The translations under genes and the position numbers were made by a program. 19,205 nucleotides of DNA from a virus: UHGV virus genome UHGV-0342274; one strand, 5' to 3'. Position 1 is the stretch's first letter. Each line of letters begins with the position of its first letter. Under the pieces are notes generated by a model, which saw only the letters and a list, made by a program, of their open reading frames with translations, was not told the DNA's origin and ran no database searches. This document shows, in pieces, positions 568 through 13,114 of the stretch.

Positions 568-1035
568 TTAGTTCAGGCACTGAGTGCGGATATAGTCCTG
601 TGCCCCTTCCAGTTGCTTCTGCATTGTCATCAACCGTTCTCTGAGGATGAAATAATCCCGTTCAGCGGTGTCTGCCAGTCGGGGGCCGGTTGCATTATCC
701 ACGCCGGAGGTGCCGGTGGCTTCACGCACTGTACCGGAGCAGGTGGCGTTGATCCGCAGGCGCTTACGACCAGCGGCAACATCAGCACGCAGAGTTTCAT
801 TTTCAGCTCTCGCATCGGCTAATTCCCTCGAGTATCTGGCATCAAGTTCAGCGACATCACGCTGGCGTATCTGCATATCAGTAATTGTCGCGTTCGCCAG
901 TTTCAGCTCACTGACTTTTTTATCGCGCTGCGCTTTGTAGGTGATGGCGTTATCGCGGTAATGATTCAGCCCCAGACTAAGCACACCACAGGCTACCAGC
1001 AGGACAATAATCACCACACACAGAACACGGTTCAT
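568..1035 (-). CDS. Rz: Rz i-spanin (inner-membrane spanin subunit)
   Basis: Translation from ATG at 1035 ([18 protein letters not shown]...[16 protein letters not shown]...[29 protein letters not shown]) shows an N-terminal TM helix plus coiled-coil, recalled as close to lambda Rz. The track ORF is longer because of an upstream in-frame start without RBS. Confidence 0.85.
630..815 (-). CDS. Rz1: Rz1 o-spanin lipoprotein, embedded in +1 frame inside Rz
   Basis: 61-aa ORF wholly inside Rz: [55 protein letters not shown].... Lipobox VSAC and a proline-rich mature region, matching recalled lambda Rz1. True start may be the internal MKLCV. Confidence 0.85.
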
Positions 1036-1253
1036 ATCACCACCAACGGATTGCCCAGACCAGAACAGCAATGGCCACAATACGAATGGCAAATGCCATT
1101 GCCCGAATAAGTTCAGCACTCATCTTTTTAAAGTTCACGATTTCAGCGCAATGACCAGTTTTGCCAGCCCATACAGCATCGGAGACACAGCAATACCAAC
1201 AGCCACCCACTTAATAGCAAAAGCCAGCGCTCTGCTGATGTCATCAGTCACTG

Positions 1254-1385
1254 TCACCCCAGCAGCCCCGACGAAGACAACATCACCCAGGCGAGGGACA
1301 GAAAAAGAGCAACCAGCATTAGTGAAAATGAAATACCGACAATCACACACAGGACCTTTGCCGGCGTTATGAGTTTGTCTGACAT
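1254..1385 (-). CDS. Putative 43-aa small membrane protein between endolysin and Rz
   Basis: ATG at 1385 preceded by AAGGGG about 6 nt upstream; translation MSDKLITPAKVLCVIVGISFSLMLVALFLSLAWVMLSSSGLLG has a single predicted TM helix. Not in the ORF track (under 60 aa). Competing frames (track ORFs 1135..1407 -, 1151..1372 +) cannot be excluded. Confidence 0.3.
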   Translation of the reverse strand: MSDKLITPAKVLCVIVGISFSLMLVALFLSLAWVMLSSSGLLG

Positions 1386-1550
1386 AGCTACCCCTTAATT
1401 GCCACAATTAACTGGGATACTACCCATAAAAAAGGGATGCTCCAGACCAGCAAAAATTTCCAGTTTGGTAATTGACTAATCATGAGTCGCAACTCCCTAA
1501 TCAGTTTGCTAAAATCAATCAAGGCAGCCTCCCATAGCTTACTGCCATAA

Positions 1551-1600
1551 AAACAAAACCCCGCTTGCTGCCAACAAACGGGGTTTTTACTTTTATTCAC
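1551..1600. terminator. Bidirectional intrinsic terminator-like hairpin between R and Rz
   Basis: AAACCCCGCTTG / CAAACGGGGTTT form a stem of about 11 bp (one mismatch) with a 7-nt loop, flanked by an A-run on one side and a T-run (TTTTTACTTTTATT) on the other, so it is followed by U-rich sequence on either strand. Confidence 0.5.
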
Positions 1601-1677
1601 TTACATTTTGCCAGTTCGCAGGATTTCGTGTTATCCGTCCGCCTTGGCCAACGTCATTTATTAGCAAAATATTCTGC

Positions 1678-2211
1678 TTATCTGTCGATTCCCCAGCACG
1701 CCAGCGCGCTCTCCTGGTCACGACGGGATACCTGACCGTAACAGTTATTTGAGCGAATACGGCAGTCTCTGCCACCGTCCTTAATCCACCAGCGAATCGC
1801 CTCACACGCTCCCCTGCGATCACCTGCATTAATTCGTTTATAAAACGTCGACGGAAAACACTTACCGGGGCCAATGTTGTACGGACAGAATGACGCGATC
1901 CCCGCTTTCTGGGGTTCACTCAATGGCACTCTGATGTTTTTCTCCACCCATGCCAGCGCCTTATCACGCTCAATGGCGTTAACCCGGTCGCATTTTTCCT
2001 TCGACAACTTCATGCCCGGAACGACAGGTTTGCCATCCACCAGGATGGCACCGCGGCAGATGGTCCAGATACCCGCGCCATCACGGTATGCCGTGGTGTG
2101 GTTACCTTCCTTTTCATCCAGAAACTGGTCGAGAATGTCAGGCGCAGGCGCACCAGCGGCAATCAGCGCCAGAACGGCAGCCGACAGGCCGTATCTGATT
2201 TTTGCGTTCAT
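1678..2211 (-). CDS. R: SAR endolysin (phage lysozyme, T4-lysozyme/GH24-like, P21 R-type)
   Basis: 177 aa. N-terminal Gly/Ala-rich weakly hydrophobic segment (GLSAAVLALIAAGAPA) typical of signal-anchor-release domains, followed by a lysozyme-like core (EGNHTTAYRDGAGIWTICRG...). Resembles recalled P21 R endolysin. Confidence 0.85.
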   Translation of the reverse strand: MNAKIRYGLSAAVLALIAAGAPAPDILDQFLDEKEGNHTTAYRDGAGIWTICRGAILVDGKPVVPGMKLSKEKCDRVNAIERDKALAWVEKNIRVPLSEPQKAGIASFCPYNIGPGKCFPSTFYKRINAGDRRGACEAIRWWIKDGGRDCRIRSNNCYGQVSRRDQESALACWGIDR

Positions 2212-2316
2212 GGATATTTATCAGGATTTATCGGTTTCTGAGCCCTGGATATGTTTATCAGTTCCAGCCTGTTGCCTCAGGCTGCTAACAGGTCAATACA
2301 ATCATGAGGATTATTT

Positions 2317-2589
2317 ATGGACAATAACACCATTTCTCTACAGGAGTTGCTCGACAGCATTTCCAGGCTTCGGGAAGACGTGAATACCCTTACCGTCGCC
2401 TTCTCATATCTGGCATTCTCAATTCCAAGGGAACAGATGCAATCAACGCTGGCATCAATCCAGTTTGAATCATGCAATCCCAAATGGTCTCAGGAACAAC
2501 AAGACTCTTTCAGGCGGCTTGCTGTATTACTGGATGAAAAATATGCTGGTAAAATTACCATTTCGGCGGACTCTTCAGAGAACCCGTAA
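2317..2589 (+). CDS. Hypothetical 90-aa protein encoded antisense within the lysis cassette
   Basis: ATG at 2317 with GAGGA about 8 nt upstream; no predicted TM segment; protein-like composition. Its 3' end overlaps the 3' end of the convergent 114-aa gene by 35 nt. No homology recognised. Confidence 0.4.
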   Translation: MDNNTISLQELLDSISRLREDVNTLTVAFSYLAFSIPREQMQSTLASIQFESCNPKWSQEQQDSFRRLAVLLDEKYAGKITISADSSENP

Positions 2590-2899
2590 TTATTCCCGGT
2601 AGTTTTCCTCTGTAGGTTATCAACACATCCTGCGCCTCTAAAATTACGGGGCGCTTTTCCGGCGACTGCTCATCCCCTTCACATAACCCGGCAGCAACAT
2701 CCAGGAAGACCTGTCTGATGCTCCTTCTGGCTGCTGCCTCATAAAACTCCAGCGCGGCACCTTCAACACGGTCCAGCGAGATGTCCAGGTCAAAAATTTC
2801 ACCGTCAAAGCGTTTTTTGTCCCGTAACGCTAAAGTTACCGTAACTTTATTCTCAAAATTGCGGATCCCTTTCACAATCAGTTCATAGTTTTGCGTCAT
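2555..2899 (-). CDS. Hypothetical protein between holin and endolysin (tentatively YdfR-like, DUF1327)
   Basis: 114 aa, ATG at 2899 with GGGAGAG RBS, beginning 5 nt after the holin stop. Position matches my recollection of ydfR between essQ and rrrQ in Qin; the family assignment is from memory only. Confidence 0.55.
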   Translation of the reverse strand: MTQNYELIVKGIRNFENKVTVTLALRDKKRFDGEIFDLDISLDRVEGAALEFYEAAARRSIRQVFLDVAAGLCEGDEQSPEKRPVILEAQDVLITYRGKLPGIITGSLKSPPKW

Positions 2900-2903
2900 T
2901 GAA

Positions 2904-3119
2904 TTACTCTCCCCGTGCAGCCTTACGACGGTCCTCTCTGATTTTGAAATACAGGTTAGTCAGATATGTCAGCAGCCCAAACAGCAGACTCCCCAGCACG
3001 CCTATTGCCGCCCACTGAGACGGGGAAACCCTGTCCAGCAACTGCAGGAACCAGTAGCCCGTTCCCACCGCTGACGTGGTGTATGACACACCTGTTGTGA
3101 TTTTTTCCATCTGGTACAT
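2904..3119 (-). CDS. S: Class II pinholin (S21-like) with dual-start motif
   Basis: 71 aa from ATG at 3119: [71 protein letters not shown]. Two TM segments and the C-terminal [15 protein letters not shown] recalled from P21 S. Met1 and Met4 give the antiholin/holin dual start. The track ORF is extended upstream. Confidence 0.85.
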
Positions 3120-3269
3120 ACCCCGTCTCCCGTTATCCGGAAGCTGACAACAATAAAAAAAGCCACCAGTTAAGTACTGATGGCTCTGATAACTCATGCA
3201 GGCATCTCAGACGACCCACTGACACTACCGGTGAGTTTAACGATACCTTCCATTTGACTGGCTCACTTT

Positions 3270-5138
3270 TTATGATGATGCTGGTGCATTTATCTCCAGC
3301 ACCAGACTTTCTATCTCAACGCCATACGCTGCATTTTTGGTAATATCCGTCAGCGTCAGCGCATTCAGCCCCAGTGTCAGACTGTCTTTTATGACCAGGA
3401 ATGCCGGGCCAGCCACTCCATTCAGTTTCGGAGTAACCGTGGCACTGCCGGCGGTGAACACCAGCTCCAGCGTCTGCCAGTCGTTACTGTAATTCCCGAA
3501 CTCGCCCAACTTTGTGTTTCCTGCTTTCCTGTGATGCATCAGATTCAGTTTGCCGTCTGTGGTCTGGGTGAAGAACGACATCAGGAACGGGTTACCAGTC
3601 CCGGTCATCGCCACGACGTCAGGTAACGCTACATCGGTATACAGATAAATTCCCAGACCGAACTGGTTGTTGGTCAGTGCGCCTGACAGTCGAAACTTAC
3701 AGCTCAGTCTGCCACCCCGTGTCAGCAGGGAGACTGCGTCATCCACCGGATGCATCAGGGACCAAGTTTTATTGCTCTGCTTGGTGATCTTAAATACACC
3801 ACCCGACAACTGAATTCCGCCGTCCTTAATGGTCCAGCCCTGCGCAGCAGCCTCTCCGGCTGTCGGCAACAGGGAGATTGTGCGTACGGATGCATCTTCA
3901 GACGGCCCCGATGGCGTGTCGACGCCGGGCGAGGGTTTGATTTCCGGTGCCTTACCACTGATGAAGGCTGAGGTGCGCCCGGCTGCGTTCAGAATAGCGG
4001 TTGCCATACGATCCGGAATAATGCTCCTGCGCGCCCATGAACTGAAATGTGTCGGGCGGTTTGACGATACCCAATTACCATTACTACGGGATTGCGCGCC
4101 GTAATAACCTGCATCAGCAATATCCGGGTCTTCTGCCGGTAAGTTGGTGGGCGTGTTGTTGCCGTTACCGTCGGTCATGAACGGCACAAAGAAAACGTTG
4201 TCGCTCTCCCTGTTTTTGTATGCGCCGTAGACGGAGTCATACTGTGTGCCGTATGTGTTTTTCCAGTAATACGTCGTGTCGCCACAAATCCACGGTACAA
4301 CTGCAGCACTGCCGCCATGGCACTGCGCGTTAAATCCGGAAAGGTCAGTACGGAACTGCTTCAGCATGGCCGTGAACAGGTCCGGTTGCTGTGCGTAGGT
4401 GGCAGCGCTCATGTCAAATTCGCCCTGCATCCAGCACACCGCCAGCAACACATTTTTCGGGTTCTTCTGTAATGCCGCTTTGGTGCGTGCGATCAGGTCC
4501 TGATATAACGGTTTACCCACACCCCAGCGTGCCGAATCCTGGCTGGCCCCCGTGTCCGCACTGAATGTCCCCTCCGCGCCCTGGGTGAATGCCGAACCAC
4601 CACGACAGCATGGTACCAGCAGGATCCCCGCGTTATTCGGGATATACGGAAGCAGTTTTTTGGCAATATGTAAGCCCTGGCCGACACAGCCGTACTGCCC
4701 TTTGCTCAGGTCTGCCTTCGGATGATTCAGTGCGCTCATATCCTGAACATCATGCAGGCAGTGGTCTGCCGGAATGATGTCGTTAAATGCGCATGCTTTA
4801 CCACCGGGAGTCACTGTGTTGCGACGGGCCAGTTGCTTAATGCGTGGGTGGGGCGCATCGTAAGAATCCGGAAGCGGAAGCCCTTCACCGTAAGCCATGG
4901 CATTGGATTGCCCGGCCAGTACGATGACGTAGTACCACTCCGGCTCAGTTGCACCACTGACGACCACATCACCTTCTGCTGCAATCGCCTGCATCAGGGT
5001 ATAAGGGGTTATGGCCACCGGACTACCAAACGGCTGCCAGCCCTCTTTCAGTTTATGTGTCAGCTTTTCCGCAAGATCTGACGGCGACGCCGCCCTGACA
5101 ACATCATAGTGTTTAAATGCCATGGTTCTTTCCACCAT
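3270..5138 (-). CDS. nanS-p: NanS-p-like sialate O-acetylesterase (DUF1737 N-terminal domain plus SASA/SGNH-type esterase)
   Basis: 622-aa ORF. N-terminus MAFKHYDVVRAASPSDLAEKLTHKLKEGWQPFGSPV (DUF1737-like), then YVIVLAGQSNAMAYGEG (GQSN esterase motif). Sits just upstream of the holin, as in Stx phages. Start may be the ATG at 5123 (MAFKHY) rather than 5138. Confidence 0.75.
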   Translation of the reverse strand: MVERTMAFKHYDVVRAASPSDLAEKLTHKLKEGWQPFGSPVAITPYTLMQAIAAEGDVVVSGATEPEWYYVIVLAGQSNAMAYGEGLPLPDSYDAPHPRIKQLARRNTVTPGGKACAFNDIIPADHCLHDVQDMSALNHPKADLSKGQYGCVGQGLHIAKKLLPYIPNNAGILLVPCCRGGSAFTQGAEGTFSADTGASQDSARWGVGKPLYQDLIARTKAALQKNPKNVLLAVCWMQGEFDMSAATYAQQPDLFTAMLKQFRTDLSGFNAQCHGGSAAVVPWICGDTTYYWKNTYGTQYDSVYGAYKNRESDNVFFVPFMTDGNGNNTPTNLPAEDPDIADAGYYGAQSRSNGNWVSSNRPTHFSSWARRSIIPDRMATAILNAAGRTSAFISGKAPEIKPSPGVDTPSGPSEDASVRTISLLPTAGEAAAQGWTIKDGGIQLSGGVFKITKQSNKTWSLMHPVDDAVSLLTRGGRLSCKFRLSGALTNNQFGLGIYLYTDVALPDVVAMTGTGNPFLMSFFTQTTDGKLNLMHHRKAGNTKLGEFGNYSNDWQTLELVFTAGSATVTPKLNGVAGPAFLVIKDSLTLGLNALTLTDITKNAAYGVEIESLVLEINAPASS

Positions 5139-5383: not shown

Positions 5384-5719
5384 ATGAAGTGGATTGTGAT
5401 TGATACAGTTATCCAGCCATCATGCGGAATATCTTTTTCAGTCATATGGAGTAAAATAAAATTAATAATCTGGTATCAATCGGATGCTTTCTTACCTCCT
5501 GAAAGTATATTTACACTGACTCACACAGGCATCATGCTCAATAACAAAGTGCTACCTGTAACCATTTACAACGTAGTACCATTCAATAAAACATTCTGGA
5601 ATTTAATCAAAAACAGCCAGGAATGCCCTACAAATACAGATAACGTATTGAATGAATGCTTTAATAACCGTTGCACTCTGCAAATATGTCCTTATGGGCT
5701 AAAACAACAAAGTCCATAA
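5384..5719 (+). CDS. Hypothetical Cys-rich 111-aa protein in an AT-rich segment
   Basis: ATG at 5384 with AAGGAA RBS 6 nt upstream. Strongly AT-rich codon usage; several Cys in the C-terminal third ([26 protein letters not shown]). Opposite strand to the late operon. No homology recognised; could be a spurious ORF in AT-rich DNA. Confidence 0.3.
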
Positions 5720-5739: not shown

Positions 5740-5775
5740 AAAATCAATATAAACAGCCCCTCCGGAGAGGGGCTG
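5740..5775 (-). terminator. Intrinsic terminator downstream of the tRNA cluster
   Basis: GC-rich 9-bp stem CAGCCCCTC/GAGGGGCTG with loop CGGA at 5754-5775. On the minus strand it is followed by TTTATATTGATTTTG. Confidence 0.5.
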
Positions 5776-6010
5776 GAGTGTGGCGCTATGTGCCATTGCA
5801 TGGTGCCGGGTGCCTCCCGGTGAATTCAGTACCAGCACCTGAATCCGCGATTATCCCATATACCTACTCGCTGATTGCCCCTCCGCACAGGGGGATTCAC
5901 CATGCCAGTTTCTTTTAACAAACTCCCCGCAAACCAGACAACAGTCAACCGCCTAAATTGTGAGACATTTAAAAAAAAGGCCCACAAAAGCGAGCCAGGG
6001 AAAATAAGTG

Positions 6011-6087
6011 TGGCGCGTTGTACTGGATTCGAACCAGTGACCGATTGCTTAGAAGGCAATTGCTCTGTCCGGCTGAGCTAACAACGC
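6011..6087 (-). tRNA. argO: tRNA-Arg (anticodon UCU)
   Basis: Cloverleaf built by hand: acceptor GCGTTGT/ACAACGC, D-arm GCTC...GAGC, anticodon stem ATTGC/GCAAT with loop CTTCTAA, T-arm ACTGG-TTCGAAT-CCAGT, CCA encoded. Third gene of an Ile-Arg-Arg cluster as in Stx phages. Confidence 0.8.
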
Positions 6088-6100
6088 ATGATGCAGATAA

Positions 6101-6177
6101 TGGACCGCCATCGGGGACTTGAACCCCGCGCAACCAGCTTCGAAGGCTGGCGCTCTTTCCTGATGAGCTAATGGCGG
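6101..6177 (-). tRNA. argN: tRNA-Arg (anticodon UCG as read from the loop)
   Basis: Acceptor CCGCCAT/ATGGCGG, anticodon stem CCAGC/GCTGG with loop CTTCGAA, T-arm CGGGG-TTCAAGT-CCCCG, CCA encoded. The symbol is by position in the cluster; the anticodon should be confirmed by software. Confidence 0.75.
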
Positions 6178-6184
6178 TATGTGA

Positions 6185-6260
6185 TGGTGGCCCTTGCTGG
6201 ATTTGAACCAGCGACCTGGCGATTATGAGTCGCTCGCTCTCACCACTGAGCTAAAGGGCC
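6185..6260 (-). tRNA. ileZ: tRNA-Ile2 (anticodon CAU, lysidine type; tRNA-Met alternative not excluded)
   Basis: Acceptor GGCCCTT/AAGGGCC, anticodon loop CTCATAA, T-arm GCTGG-TTCAAAT-CCAGC, CCA encoded. Very close to recalled E. coli ileX sequence. Confidence 0.8.
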
Positions 6261-12747: not shown

Positions 12748-12903
12748 TTACTCCTCAGGTTCGTAAGCTGTGAAGACAGCGACCTCCGTCTGGCCGGTTC
12801 GGATTCGTACCTCGCAGAGGTCTTTCCTCGTTACCAGTGCCGTCACAATGACGGTTAAACAGATGACGATCAGGGCGATTAGCATCGCCTTTTGCTGCTT
12901 CAT
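12748..12903 (-). CDS. hokD: Hok/Gef-family type I toxin (HokD/RelF-like)
   Basis: 51 aa from ATG at 12903: MKQQKAMLIALIVICLTVIVTALVTRKDLCEVRIRTGQTEVAVFTAYEPEE, matching HokD as I recall it. The track ORF extends in frame 19 codons upstream (MLYTRRLASYVPKGKEKQA). Confidence 0.85.
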   Translation of the reverse strand: MKQQKAMLIALIVICLTVIVTALVTRKDLCEVRIRTGQTEVAVFTAYEPEE

Positions 12904-13114
12904 AGCCTGCTTCTCCTTGCCTTTCGGCACGTAAGAGGCTAACCTACGTGTGTAGAGCATAGATATGGCCTCAGATTAATGTTAAGCGTCTTGCCGGACG
13001 CGTAATGTTAACTGGGGCTTTTCTCTATCTGCCTTTTGGTGTTCATGCCTGAGACAGATAGCCTCAAGCACCCGCTGCAATTCTACTTAACTCTCCTTTT
13101 CCCGCAAACCGTTT

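What the first reader, a model, noticed from the sequence alone, without database searches (positions are those of the whole stretch)
2212..2903. Lysis cassette interrupted between holin and endolysin by a 114-aa gene and a convergent, antisense 90-aa ORF
In canonical P21/lambda cassettes S and R are adjacent or overlapping. Here about 690 bp separates them. The space holds a co-oriented 114-aa gene with good RBS (tentatively YdfR/DUF1327-like) and, in the 340-bp gap before R, a plus-strand 90-aa ORF with a strong GAGGA RBS whose 3' end overlaps the 114-aa gene convergently. R itself has no recognisable SD. An antisense gene inside a lysis operon could act as a lysis-timing or anti-lysis element, or as a moron expressed in the lysogen.
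Basis: partly seen in the sequence, partly recalled or inferred. Interest (0 to 1): 0.6.

Follow-up and report, generated by a model that had tools for sequence, protein, structure and literature searches.

The report
Reverse-oriented accessory gene in lysis cassette
A lambdoid E. coli prophage carries, between its holin and endolysin genes, the known YdfR gene plus a real but uncharacterised 90-aa gene on the opposite strand. This is common mobile cargo found in about a fifth of complete E. coli genomes, not a new piece of the lysis machinery.

Summary
A P21-type holin (2904-3119, -) and a lysozyme (1678-2211, -) are 692 bp apart. The space holds a 114-aa YdfR/DUF1327 gene (2555-2899, -) and a convergent 90-aa ORF (2317-2589, +). 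The ORF has a GAGGA ribosome-binding site and overlaps ydfR by 35 nt. The lysozyme has no SD.

The 90-aa ORF is a real gene. Its frame and start codon are kept in six loci down to 58% identity, dN/dS is 0.12-0.38, and PGAP and PHROGs (phrog_2411) already list it. It has no Pfam, NCBIfam, PADLOC or fold match. The model is a soluble, acidic three-helix protein.

K-12 Qin has essQ-ydfR-rrrQ without it. Window 2222-2693 replaces 92 bp of K-12.

Relatives sit in other places: upstream of a different holin, among tail genes, on IncF plasmids, and between dinI and bssS. That argues against a lysis-specific role and for moron-like cargo. Its own promoter and its expression in lysogens are inferred, not shown.

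One point is unexplained. In every phage context the gene is convergent with a late-strand gene ending in a conserved "...ITGSLxxPP" tail.

The arrangement is ordinary and already annotated. The gene's function is unknown.

The parts
2904..3119 (-). Class II (P21-type) holin, 71 aa, with an MYQM dual-start motif. First gene of the lysis cassette.
   Evidence: PF04971, E 2.3e-32. PGAP calls it a class II holin.
2694..2899 (-). YdfR, DUF1327 core (codons 1-69). Homologous to K-12 Qin ydfR.
   Evidence: PF07041, E 7e-43. blastn to K-12 covers 2694-3110 at 81%. The AF2 model shows three strands plus a helix.
2555..2693 (-). Alternative C-terminal tail of YdfR (codons 70-114), ending ...ITYRGKLPGIITGSLKSPPKW. 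It is not homologous to the K-12 YdfR C-terminus.
   Evidence: K-12 homology stops at 2694. The tail motif recurs on unrelated N-terminal parts in Citrobacter, Yersinia, Atlantibacter and Klebsiella. Third-position variation within ITGS shows selection at the protein level.
2317..2589 (+). 90-aa gene (phrog_2411 / 'Ybl58' family). Predicted as an acidic (pI 4.5), soluble, three-helix protein.
   Evidence: Frame conservation and dN/dS of 0.12-0.38. phrog_2411, E 1e-58. PGAP CDS WP_000369850.1. AF2 pLDDT 71.7 with helices at 8-34, 38-52 and 59-76. No TM segment.
2306..2310 (+). GAGGA Shine-Dalgarno of the 90-aa gene, 6 nt before the ATG.
   Evidence: Sequence. AGGA is kept at this position in 7 of 8 divergent loci although the flanks differ.
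2555..2589 (.). 35-nt convergent 3'-3' overlap of the 90-aa gene and ydfR.
   Evidence: A 7-47 nt overlap occurs in the phage-context relatives whose partner gene is intact.
2212..2316 (.). 105-nt spacer. It is the SD-less leader of the lysozyme on the late strand and the 5' flank of the 90-aa gene on the plus strand. If the gene has its own promoter, it should lie here.
   Evidence: The spacer is kept next to the 90-aa gene even in phage phiSTEC1575-Stx2k, where the lysozyme is replaced. Positions 2212-2262 are also kept in the variant that lacks the 90-aa gene. No sigma-70 consensus was found. The RNA fold is not significant, z = -0.87.
2222..2693 (.). 472-bp segment that replaces 92 bp of the K-12 Qin cassette. 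This is the inserted cargo.
   Evidence: blastn of window against NC_000913 matches only 1668-2221 and 2694-3110. GC is 46%, against 53-55% for the holin and lysozyme.
1678..2211 (-). Lysozyme (RrrQ-like, 177 aa, hydrophobic N-terminus) with no SD.
   Evidence: PF00959. PGAP names it rrrQ. Upstream sequence.
568..1035 (-). Rz spanin, with Rz1 embedded at 630-815. End of the lysis cassette.
   Evidence: PF03245, E 1e-49. ORFs; annotation.

Best explanation
The holin-lysozyme interval of this Qin/P21-type lysis cassette holds horizontally acquired accessory cargo, not lysis machinery.

One part is YdfR. It is a late-strand gene already known from K-12 Qin. Here its DUF1327 core is fused to a different C-terminal tail.

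The other part is a real 90-aa gene on the opposite strand. It encodes a small, acidic, soluble three-helix protein. The family is uncharacterised and confined to Enterobacterales (phrog_2411; the plasmid paralogue is named 'Ybl58').

I infer that the 90-aa gene behaves as a reverse-oriented moron. It would be transcribed from its own promoter in the 105-nt spacer, against the direction of the pR' late transcript. It would therefore be expressed mainly when late transcription is off, that is, in the lysogen. Its protein would act on a host or competing-phage target rather than on holin or endolysin. During lytic growth the antiterminated late transcript would read through it antisense to reach the SD-less lysozyme gene.

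Shown: the gene is real, it is mobile, and it is independent of lysis genes. Inferred: the promoter, the timing of expression and the target.
For: Real gene:
- The frame and Met are conserved in six loci at 58-87% identity.
- dN/dS is 0.12-0.38, with codon-position variation 45/32/71.
- About 800 of about 866 member sequences in the homologue clusters are full length.
- The SD is conserved.
- PGAP and PHROGs already list it.

Cargo:
- K-12 Qin has essQ-ydfR-rrrQ with the ydfR stop overlapping the rrrQ start, and no such gene.
- The breakpoints lie at 2221/2222 and 2693/2694.
- A 116-aa YdfR variant is a clean deletion of the gene.
- Loci L007-L009 carry the gene but only a 35-codon ydfR remnant.
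- GC is 45-46%, against 53-55% for the neighbours.

Not lysis-specific. Relatives lie:
- upstream of a lambda-S-type holin and a CHAP endolysin in Citrobacter;
- between tail genes M and L in Atlantibacter;
- after tail gene I in Yersinia;
- near the terminase genes in Klebsiella;
- beside an AIDA-type autotransporter on 75 E. coli plasmids, 70 of them predicted conjugative and the two inspected IncF;
- in chromosomes, between dinI and bssS and in Sodalis.

Phages that carry it are viable: Chlobot and phiSTEC1575-Stx2k.

In variants with a 176-aa YdfR, the same slot holds a different convergent small gene, phrog_2572. This suggests the slot takes cargo repeatedly.

No TM segment or signal peptide was found.
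Against: - No sigma-70 consensus promoter was found upstream. No clear intrinsic terminator lies downstream.
- There are no transcript or translation data.
- No functional clue came from Pfam, NCBIfam, PADLOC, Foldseek against PDB and BFVD, or a profile search against PDB sequences.
- The gene is linked in every phage context to a late-strand gene with a conserved tail. The simple moron reading does not explain this.
Confidence: 0.6

Rival explanations
1. The 90-aa gene and the tail-bearing late-strand gene form a functional two-gene module. Here that late-strand gene is YdfR-114. The 90-aa protein would bind or counteract the conserved C-terminal tail. Alternatively, convergent overlapping transcription would make the two genes mutually exclusive, one expressed in the lysogen and the other late in infection.
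For: - Wherever the partner gene is intact, the two genes converge with a 7-47 nt 3' overlap. This holds across five genera and four positions in the prophage.
- The partner's last ~25 aa keep the motif [I/L]xGxLxxxx[I/L][T/I/F]G[S/D]LxxP, although the N-terminal parts differ: DUF1327, a 238-aa unknown protein, or 62-71 aa helical proteins.
- Third-position changes within ITGS show that the tail is selected as protein.
- In Atlantibacter loci L035-L037 the partner has lost the tail, and the convergent gene is also a different one.
Against: Neither gene needs the other.
- The tail persists without the 90-aa gene in the very abundant 116-aa YdfR and in the 176/183-aa YdfR.
- In Salmonella the partner is intact while the 90-aa gene is a remnant.
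- The 90-aa gene persists with only a startless ydfR remnant.
- It stands alone on plasmids and chromosomes.

Overlapping 3' ends would by themselves keep two genes linked through recombination.
Confidence: 0.15
2. The antisense gene tunes lysis, either as an anti-lysis protein or through its transcript. The transcript would pair with the late mRNA between ydfR and the lysozyme gene and alter lysozyme expression.
For: - The gene sits exactly between holin and endolysin in about a fifth of complete E. coli genomes.
- Its transcript would be complementary to the ydfR 3' end and to part of the lysozyme leader.
- The lysozyme has no SD and is no longer translationally coupled to ydfR as it is in K-12.
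Against: - Relatives sit in tail, terminase, plasmid and chromosomal contexts with no holin or endolysin nearby.
- The same lysozyme leader (2212-2262) and SD-less start occur in cassettes that lack the gene.
- The protein has no TM segment. Known antiholins are membrane proteins (established knowledge of S107, S21-71 and RI).
- The holin has its own dual start.
- Selection acts on the protein sequence, so an RNA-only role is not sufficient.
Confidence: 0.1
3. The 90-aa ORF is a chance open frame in a spacer, kept open only because it shares wobble positions with constraints on the other strand.
For: - An antisense frame that shares third positions is also nearly open.
- No promoter was recognised.
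- No function is known.
Against: - The ORF is open full length, with a conserved start, in all loci examined, including plasmid and chromosomal contexts where no late-strand gene lies opposite.
- Synonymous sites are saturated while the protein stays 58-72% identical.
- Distant members at 25-40% identity keep the VAFSYLAFS motif.
- The antisense frame has stops at shifting positions.
Confidence: 0.03

Closest known systems
Lysis cassette of E. coli K-12 cryptic prophage Qin (essQ-ydfR-rrrQ-rzpQ/rzoQ)
   Same: - It has the same class II holin, DUF1327 YdfR core, RrrQ-type lysozyme and Rz/Rz1, in the same order. DNA identity is 81-83%.
- YdfR between S and R is therefore a known arrangement.
- K-12 YdfR binds the RNase E catalytic half and co-purifies with RNA (PMC13232886).
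   Different: - K-12 has no 90-aa gene. Its ydfR stop overlaps the rrrQ start.
- Its YdfR C-terminus (34 aa) is unrelated to the 45-aa ITGSL tail here. The window has 472 bp where K-12 has 92 bp.
Reverse-oriented morons of lambdoid late regions, such as lambda bor downstream of Rz (established knowledge: Barondess & Beckwith 1990; Juhala et al. 2000)
   Same: - It is a small gene on the strand opposite to the late transcript.
- It is present or absent between otherwise collinear phages.
- Its GC is lower than its neighbours'.
- A Lambda_Bor gene lies antisense after Rz in related cassettes. IraM lies antisense in this same late region.
   Different: - Bor is a lipoprotein with a known promoter and a serum-resistance phenotype.
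- This protein is cytoplasmic, has no known function and no recognised promoter or terminator.
- It lies inside the cassette and overlaps a late gene.
phrog_2572 gene in cassettes with 176/183-aa YdfR
   Same: It occupies the same slot between YdfR and the lysozyme, in the same convergent orientation. It is of similar size (86 aa) and overlaps the YdfR 3' end by 53 nt.
   Different: Its sequence is unrelated (hhalign probability 0.2%). There YdfR continues past the ITGSLKTPP tail into an extra helical C-terminal region.
'Ybl58' hypothetical protein of E. coli plasmids, mostly conjugative (IncF where checked)
   Same: It belongs to the same protein family (58% identity, same length, VAFSYLAFS core).
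   Different: It stands alone downstream of an AIDA-type autotransporter gene. It has no convergent partner and no phage genes nearby.

Membership tests
YdfR / DUF1327 (PF07041) | Match to the Pfam model above the gathering score | tested here: met
   145.2 bits against a cut-off of 25, E 7e-43, covering residues 1-111.
YdfR / DUF1327 (PF07041) | Position between the class II holin and the lysozyme, as in K-12 Qin | tested here: met
YdfR / DUF1327 (PF07041) | Binding to the RNase E N-terminal half and co-purification with RNA, as reported for K-12 YdfR | not testable with these tools
   PMC13232886 maps the interaction to residues 1-72, which are conserved here. The weak Foldseek resemblance to PUR repeats (E 0.05) is only a lead.
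phrog_2411 (90-aa family) | Full-length match to the family profile | tested here: met
   E 1.1e-58, residues 1-90 of 90. Citrobacter and Yersinia relatives also match.
Moron (independently transcribed accessory gene in a phage operon) | Present or absent between otherwise collinear phage genomes | tested here: met
   Absent in K-12 Qin and in the 116-aa YdfR variant. Present in the window and in phages Chlobot and Stx2k.
Moron (independently transcribed accessory gene in a phage operon) | Own promoter | tested here: inconclusive
   There is no sigma-70 consensus site in 2212-2316. Only weak candidates were seen by eye. The 105-nt flank travels with the gene.
Moron (independently transcribed accessory gene in a phage operon) | Own terminator | tested here: inconclusive
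   The scan found no plus-strand terminator downstream. By eye there is only a weak hairpin (stems at about 2633-2637 and 2652-2656), inside the ydfR coding sequence.
Moron (independently transcribed accessory gene in a phage operon) | Expression from the repressed prophage | not testable with these tools
   No expression data were available. The literature searches found nothing on this gene.
Moron (independently transcribed accessory gene in a phage operon) | Base composition different from the neighbours | tested here: met
   GC is 45% for the gene and 46% for the cargo, against 53-55% for the holin and lysozyme. The difference is modest.
Antiholin / lysis-timing regulator | Membrane association, or similarity to a holin or antiholin | tested here: not met
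   The highest 19-residue Kyte-Doolittle mean is 0.75. There is no Pfam holin hit.
Antiholin / lysis-timing regulator | Consistent genomic association with holin and endolysin genes | tested here: not met
   Relatives lie in tail, terminase, plasmid and chromosomal contexts.
Obligate two-gene (toxin-antidote-like) pair with the tail-bearing late gene | Neither gene persists without the other | tested here: not met
   The tail occurs without the gene. The gene occurs without the partner.
P21/Qin-type lysis cassette | Class II holin with a dual start, lysozyme with a hydrophobic N-terminus, and Rz with embedded Rz1 | tested here: met
   PF04971, PF00959 and PF03245 all match. The holin starts MYQM, the lysozyme starts MNAKIRYGLSAAVLALIAAG, and Rz1 lies at 630-815 inside Rz.

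The most novel reading that the evidence does not exclude
The 90-aa protein and the conserved '...ITGSLxxPP' tail of the late-strand partner could form a previously unrecognised two-component phage module. The small protein, made in the lysogen, would bind or mask the tail of a late protein. In E. coli that late protein is the RNase E-binding YdfR. Convergent overlapping transcription would flip the balance between the two at induction. That would link prophage state to host RNA decay or to a late-stage function.
Probability: 0.12. Interest if true: 0.65.

Novelty: new member of a known kind. Interest (0 to 1): 0.35.

Why it matters
This affects annotation and the design of lysis studies. The S-R interval of Qin/P21-type cassettes is a recurrent cargo slot, so extra genes there should not be assumed to be lysis genes.

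The 90-aa family is widespread. It is in about 21% of complete E. coli genomes, on 75 E. coli plasmids (70 predicted conjugative), and in at least five other enterobacterial genera. It is under purifying selection and has no assigned function. That makes it a reasonable candidate for a lysogenic-conversion or phage-competition factor.

The conserved convergent pairing with a tail-bearing late protein is a small, testable puzzle. One form of that late protein is YdfR, which was recently reported to bind RNase E.

Tried and rejected
No functional clue for the 90-aa protein or its distant relatives:
- Pfam, NCBIfam and PADLOC gave nothing above noise. The best was 'Mip' at E 0.037 over 15 residues.
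- Foldseek of the AF2 model against PDB and BFVD gave nothing below E 0.6. The afdb50 library was unavailable.
- A profile search against PDB sequences returned only coiled-coil noise.

No RNA element or regulatory signal:
- Rfam found nothing in 2100-3000.
- The promoter/terminator scan found no plus-strand promoter upstream of the gene.
- The late-strand leader RNA folds no better than shuffles, z = -0.87.
- The short TTTATCAG repeats in the leader could be chance.
- I looked by eye for a LexA box upstream of the gene and of the dinI-adjacent relative and found none.

Relationships tested and rejected:
- hhalign shows the alternative 86-aa gene (phrog_2572) is unrelated.
- PHROGs and Pfam do not recognise the small tail-bearing partners.

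Searches that failed or returned nothing:
- Literature searches for the protein accessions, phrog_2411, ybl58, DUF1327 and essQ/rrrQ/ydfR returned only the RNase E interaction paper.
- The search for related loci failed with the broad alignment and was rerun with a narrower one.

Full report
**1. What is in the sequence**

The minus strand of window 568-5138 carries the late region of a lambdoid prophage. In order it holds:
- a NanS-p-like SASA esterase (3270-5138);
- a class II P21-type holin (2904-3119; PF04971, E 2e-32; starts MYQM);
- a 114-aa YdfR/DUF1327 gene (2555-2899; PF07041, E 7e-43);
- a 343-bp gap;
- an RrrQ-type lysozyme (1678-2211; PF00959);
- a further stretch of small ORFs;
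- Rz (568-1035, PGAP start; PF03245) with Rz1 (630-815) embedded.

The gap contains a plus-strand ORF at 2317-2589 (90 aa). GAGGA sits at 2306-2310, 6 nt before the ATG. The ORF's last 35 nt overlap the 3' end of ydfR.

The lysozyme start is preceded by TCAGAAACCGATAAATCCTGATAAATATCC, which has no SD. ydfR has GGGGAGAG 7 nt upstream of its ATG.

**2. The 90-aa ORF is a gene**

- PGAP annotates it as hypothetical protein WP_000369850.1.
- It matches phrog_2411 over its full length, E 1e-58.
- A search of 5.8 billion proteins found 62 clusters. Those of 85-93 aa hold about 800 of about 866 member sequences.
- I took DNA from six loci at 58-87% protein identity: the window, E. coli B Rac, an IncF-type plasmid, a Citrobacter contig, and two metagenomic or isolate contigs. 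In all six the frame is open from a conserved Met.
- Nei-Gojobori dN/dS is 0.12-0.38, and synonymous sites are saturated in the distant pairs. Variable sites fall 45/32/71 on codon positions 1/2/3. Fisher tests for excess synonymous change give p between 7e-3 and 6e-11.
- One antisense frame shares the wobble positions and is nearly open, but its stops shift between loci.
- AGGA is kept before the start in 7 of 8 loci although the flanks differ.
- A profile search of 1.84 billion cluster representatives found only 20 clusters. These include 81-97 aa members at 25-40% identity that keep the core L..VAFSYLAFS...E....T[IL].[AS]L.FES.N.

**3. What the protein looks like**

- It is 10.2 kDa with pI 4.5. 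It has no hydrophobic segment long enough for a membrane span.
- AlphaFold2 gives three helices (8-34, 38-52, 59-76) at mean pLDDT 71.7.
- There is no Pfam, NCBIfam or PADLOC hit, for it or for its distant relatives.
- No fold match appeared in PDB or BFVD. A profile search of PDB sequences also found nothing.

**4. How the arrangement arose**

- K-12 Qin has essQ-ydfR-rrrQ packed tightly. The ydfR stop overlaps the rrrQ start, and no gene lies on the other strand.
- blastn aligns the window to K-12 only at 1668-2221 and 2694-3110. Window 2222-2693 (472 bp) therefore replaces 92 bp of K-12.
- The replaced segment holds three things: the last 45 codons of YdfR (a different tail), the 90-aa gene, and its 5' flank.
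- The cargo's GC is 46%, against 53-55% for the holin and lysozyme.

Related E. coli cassettes show every intermediate.
- A very abundant 116-aa YdfR has the 90-aa gene cleanly deleted. Only 63 nt separate it from the lysozyme, and it has the same SD-less leader.
- A 176/183-aa YdfR runs on past the tail. It has a different convergent 86-aa gene in the slot (phrog_2572), unrelated by hhalign.
- Loci L007-L009 keep the 90-aa gene, but ydfR is reduced to a startless 35-codon remnant.
- The interval 2212-2600 is at least 80% covered in 1130 of 5426 complete E. coli genomes.

Two deposited complete phage genomes carry the module. Chlobot was recovered from puddle water or mud. phiSTEC1575-Stx2k is a Shiga toxin 2k phage in which S-ydfR-ORF90 is followed by a second holin pair and an M15 peptidase instead of the lysozyme.

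**5. Where relatives sit**

- Citrobacter: upstream of a lambda-S-type holin and a CHAP endolysin.
- Salmonella: the same position, but the gene is degraded.
- Atlantibacter: between tail genes M and L.
- Yersinia: after tail gene I.
- Klebsiella: upstream of the terminase genes.
- Plasmids: 75 E. coli plasmids, 70 predicted conjugative (the two inspected are IncF). In the three records examined, the 'Ybl58' paralogue follows an AIDA-type autotransporter gene.
- Chromosomes: in Sodalis ligni, and between dinI and bssS in an unnamed enterobacterial assembly.

A gene with this distribution is not a dedicated part of holin-endolysin lysis.

**6. Most likely mode of action**

The evidence fits a reverse-oriented moron.
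- It is presence/absence cargo in a late operon.
- It lies on the opposite strand.
- It has its own ribosome-binding site and encodes a soluble protein.

By analogy with lambda bor, and with IraM in this same prophage, I infer two things. It is transcribed from a promoter in the 105-nt spacer when late transcription is silent. Its product acts on a host or competitor target.

These steps are inferred, not shown. The consensus scan finds no sigma-70 promoter there. No clean terminator lies downstream. I found no expression data.

On the late strand, Q-antiterminated transcription has to read through the gene antisense to reach the lysozyme. The SD-less leader (2212-2262) is conserved with or without the gene. 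The lysozyme's unusual start is therefore not a consequence of the insertion.

**7. YdfR**

- The DUF1327 core matches K-12 YdfR. A 2026 study found that K-12 YdfR binds the catalytic half of RNase E through residues 1-72 and co-purifies with RNA. Overexpression had little effect on the transcriptome (PMC13232886).
- My AF2 model (pLDDT 64.7) shows three strands and a helix, then a poorly predicted tail with three short strands.
- The best Foldseek hits are PUR repeats at E 0.05, which is only a lead.

**8. An unexplained regularity**

In every phage-context locus, the 90-aa gene or its relative is convergent with a late-strand gene. Where that partner is intact, the 3' ends overlap by 7-47 nt. 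In L007-L009 only a startless 3' remnant of the partner remains. The partner's last ~25 residues share a motif:
- ITYRGKLPGIITGSLKSPPKW in E. coli;
- KINGEIRNEKITGSLRAPIKL in Citrobacter;
- ELYSEKITGSLFAPL in Yersinia;
- FSIKGNIFSDQIFGDLKKPPSY in Atlantibacter;
- VIKGGQLRYKRLTGDILIPLES in Klebsiella.

The N-terminal parts are unrelated or only loosely similar. Third-position changes within ITGS show that the tail is selected as protein.

The pairing is not obligate in either direction. I therefore rate a functional two-gene module at only about 0.15. Overlapping 3' ends alone would keep the two genes linked. It is still the most interesting loose end.

**9. Comparison with what is known, and verdict**

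- YdfR between S and R is known from K-12.
- Antisense morons in lambdoid late regions are known.
- The 90-aa gene is already in RefSeq and PHROGs as a hypothetical protein.

What this analysis adds:
- evidence that the gene is under purifying selection;
- its breakpoints relative to K-12;
- its non-lysis distribution, which argues against the lysis-timing idea;
- the conserved convergent partner tail.

I class it as a new member of a known kind, with interest 0.35.

Noticed in passing
window 1036-1677: The cassette is interrupted a second time, between the lysozyme and Rz. A strong terminator-like hairpin lies on the late strand at 1587-1555. It is followed by three small late-strand ORFs, at least one hydrophobic, that match PHROGs of unknown function: 1388-1600 (phrog_6632), 1254-1385 (phrog_4906) and 1135-1290 (phrog_3246).
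   Followed up: partly
window 2555-2693 and loci L005, L006, L011, L012, L028, L030: A conserved C-terminal tail motif (...[I/L]xGxLxxxx[I/L]TG[S/D]LxxP(P)) sits on otherwise different late-strand proteins. Each is convergent with a member of the 90-aa family. This holds across E. coli, Citrobacter, Yersinia, Atlantibacter and Klebsiella, at different positions in the prophage.
   Followed up: partly
L017 2979-3239 (-): In cassettes with a 176/183-aa YdfR, the same slot holds a different convergent 86-aa gene (phrog_2572, E 1e-53). It overlaps the YdfR 3' end by 53 nt and is unrelated to the 90-aa family.
   Followed up: partly
L021 3001-3279: A distant family member (92 aa) lies as a stand-alone chromosomal gene between dinI and bssS, in the order rne-pyrC-dinI-X-bssS-solA. 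The assembly is an unnamed enterobacterial one. The gene lies after the dinI terminator and I saw no LexA box.
   Followed up: partly
window 2212-2262: The SD-less lysozyme leader is more conserved between alleles than the neighbouring 90-aa coding sequence. It contains three TTTATC(A/G)G repeats (GATAAA on the late strand). This may be an A/U-rich initiation region, or the repeats may be chance.
   Followed up: partly
window 5384-5719 (+): An IraM anti-adaptor gene lies on the strand opposite to the late operon, between the tRNA/pR' region and the esterase gene. It is a second reverse-oriented accessory gene in the same late region.
   Followed up: no
window 5745-5934 (-), 6014-6260 (-): There is an Rfam STnc100 sRNA match (132 bits) and three tRNA genes, downstream of the Q antiterminator gene on the late strand (upstream of the lysis genes).
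   Followed up: no
window 12898-13073 (-): A sok antitoxin RNA match (117 bits) lies next to a hokD-type toxin gene in the early/nin region.
   Followed up: no
window 3159-3187 (-): A terminator-like hairpin with a T-run lies between the esterase gene and the holin, inside the late operon.
   Followed up: no
L023 (phage phiSTEC1575-Stx2k) 1285-3303: This Shiga toxin 2k phage carries the class II holin, YdfR-114 and the 90-aa gene. These are followed not by the lysozyme but by a second holin pair and an M15 metallopeptidase. The junction lies exactly at the lysozyme start codon, next to a strong late-strand terminator.
   Followed up: partly
window 2555-2899 (YdfR model): The best PDB fold matches of the YdfR model are PUR-alpha nucleic-acid-binding repeats (E 0.05, probability 0.47). 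The match is weak, but it agrees with the reported co-purification of RNA with K-12 YdfR.
   Followed up: no
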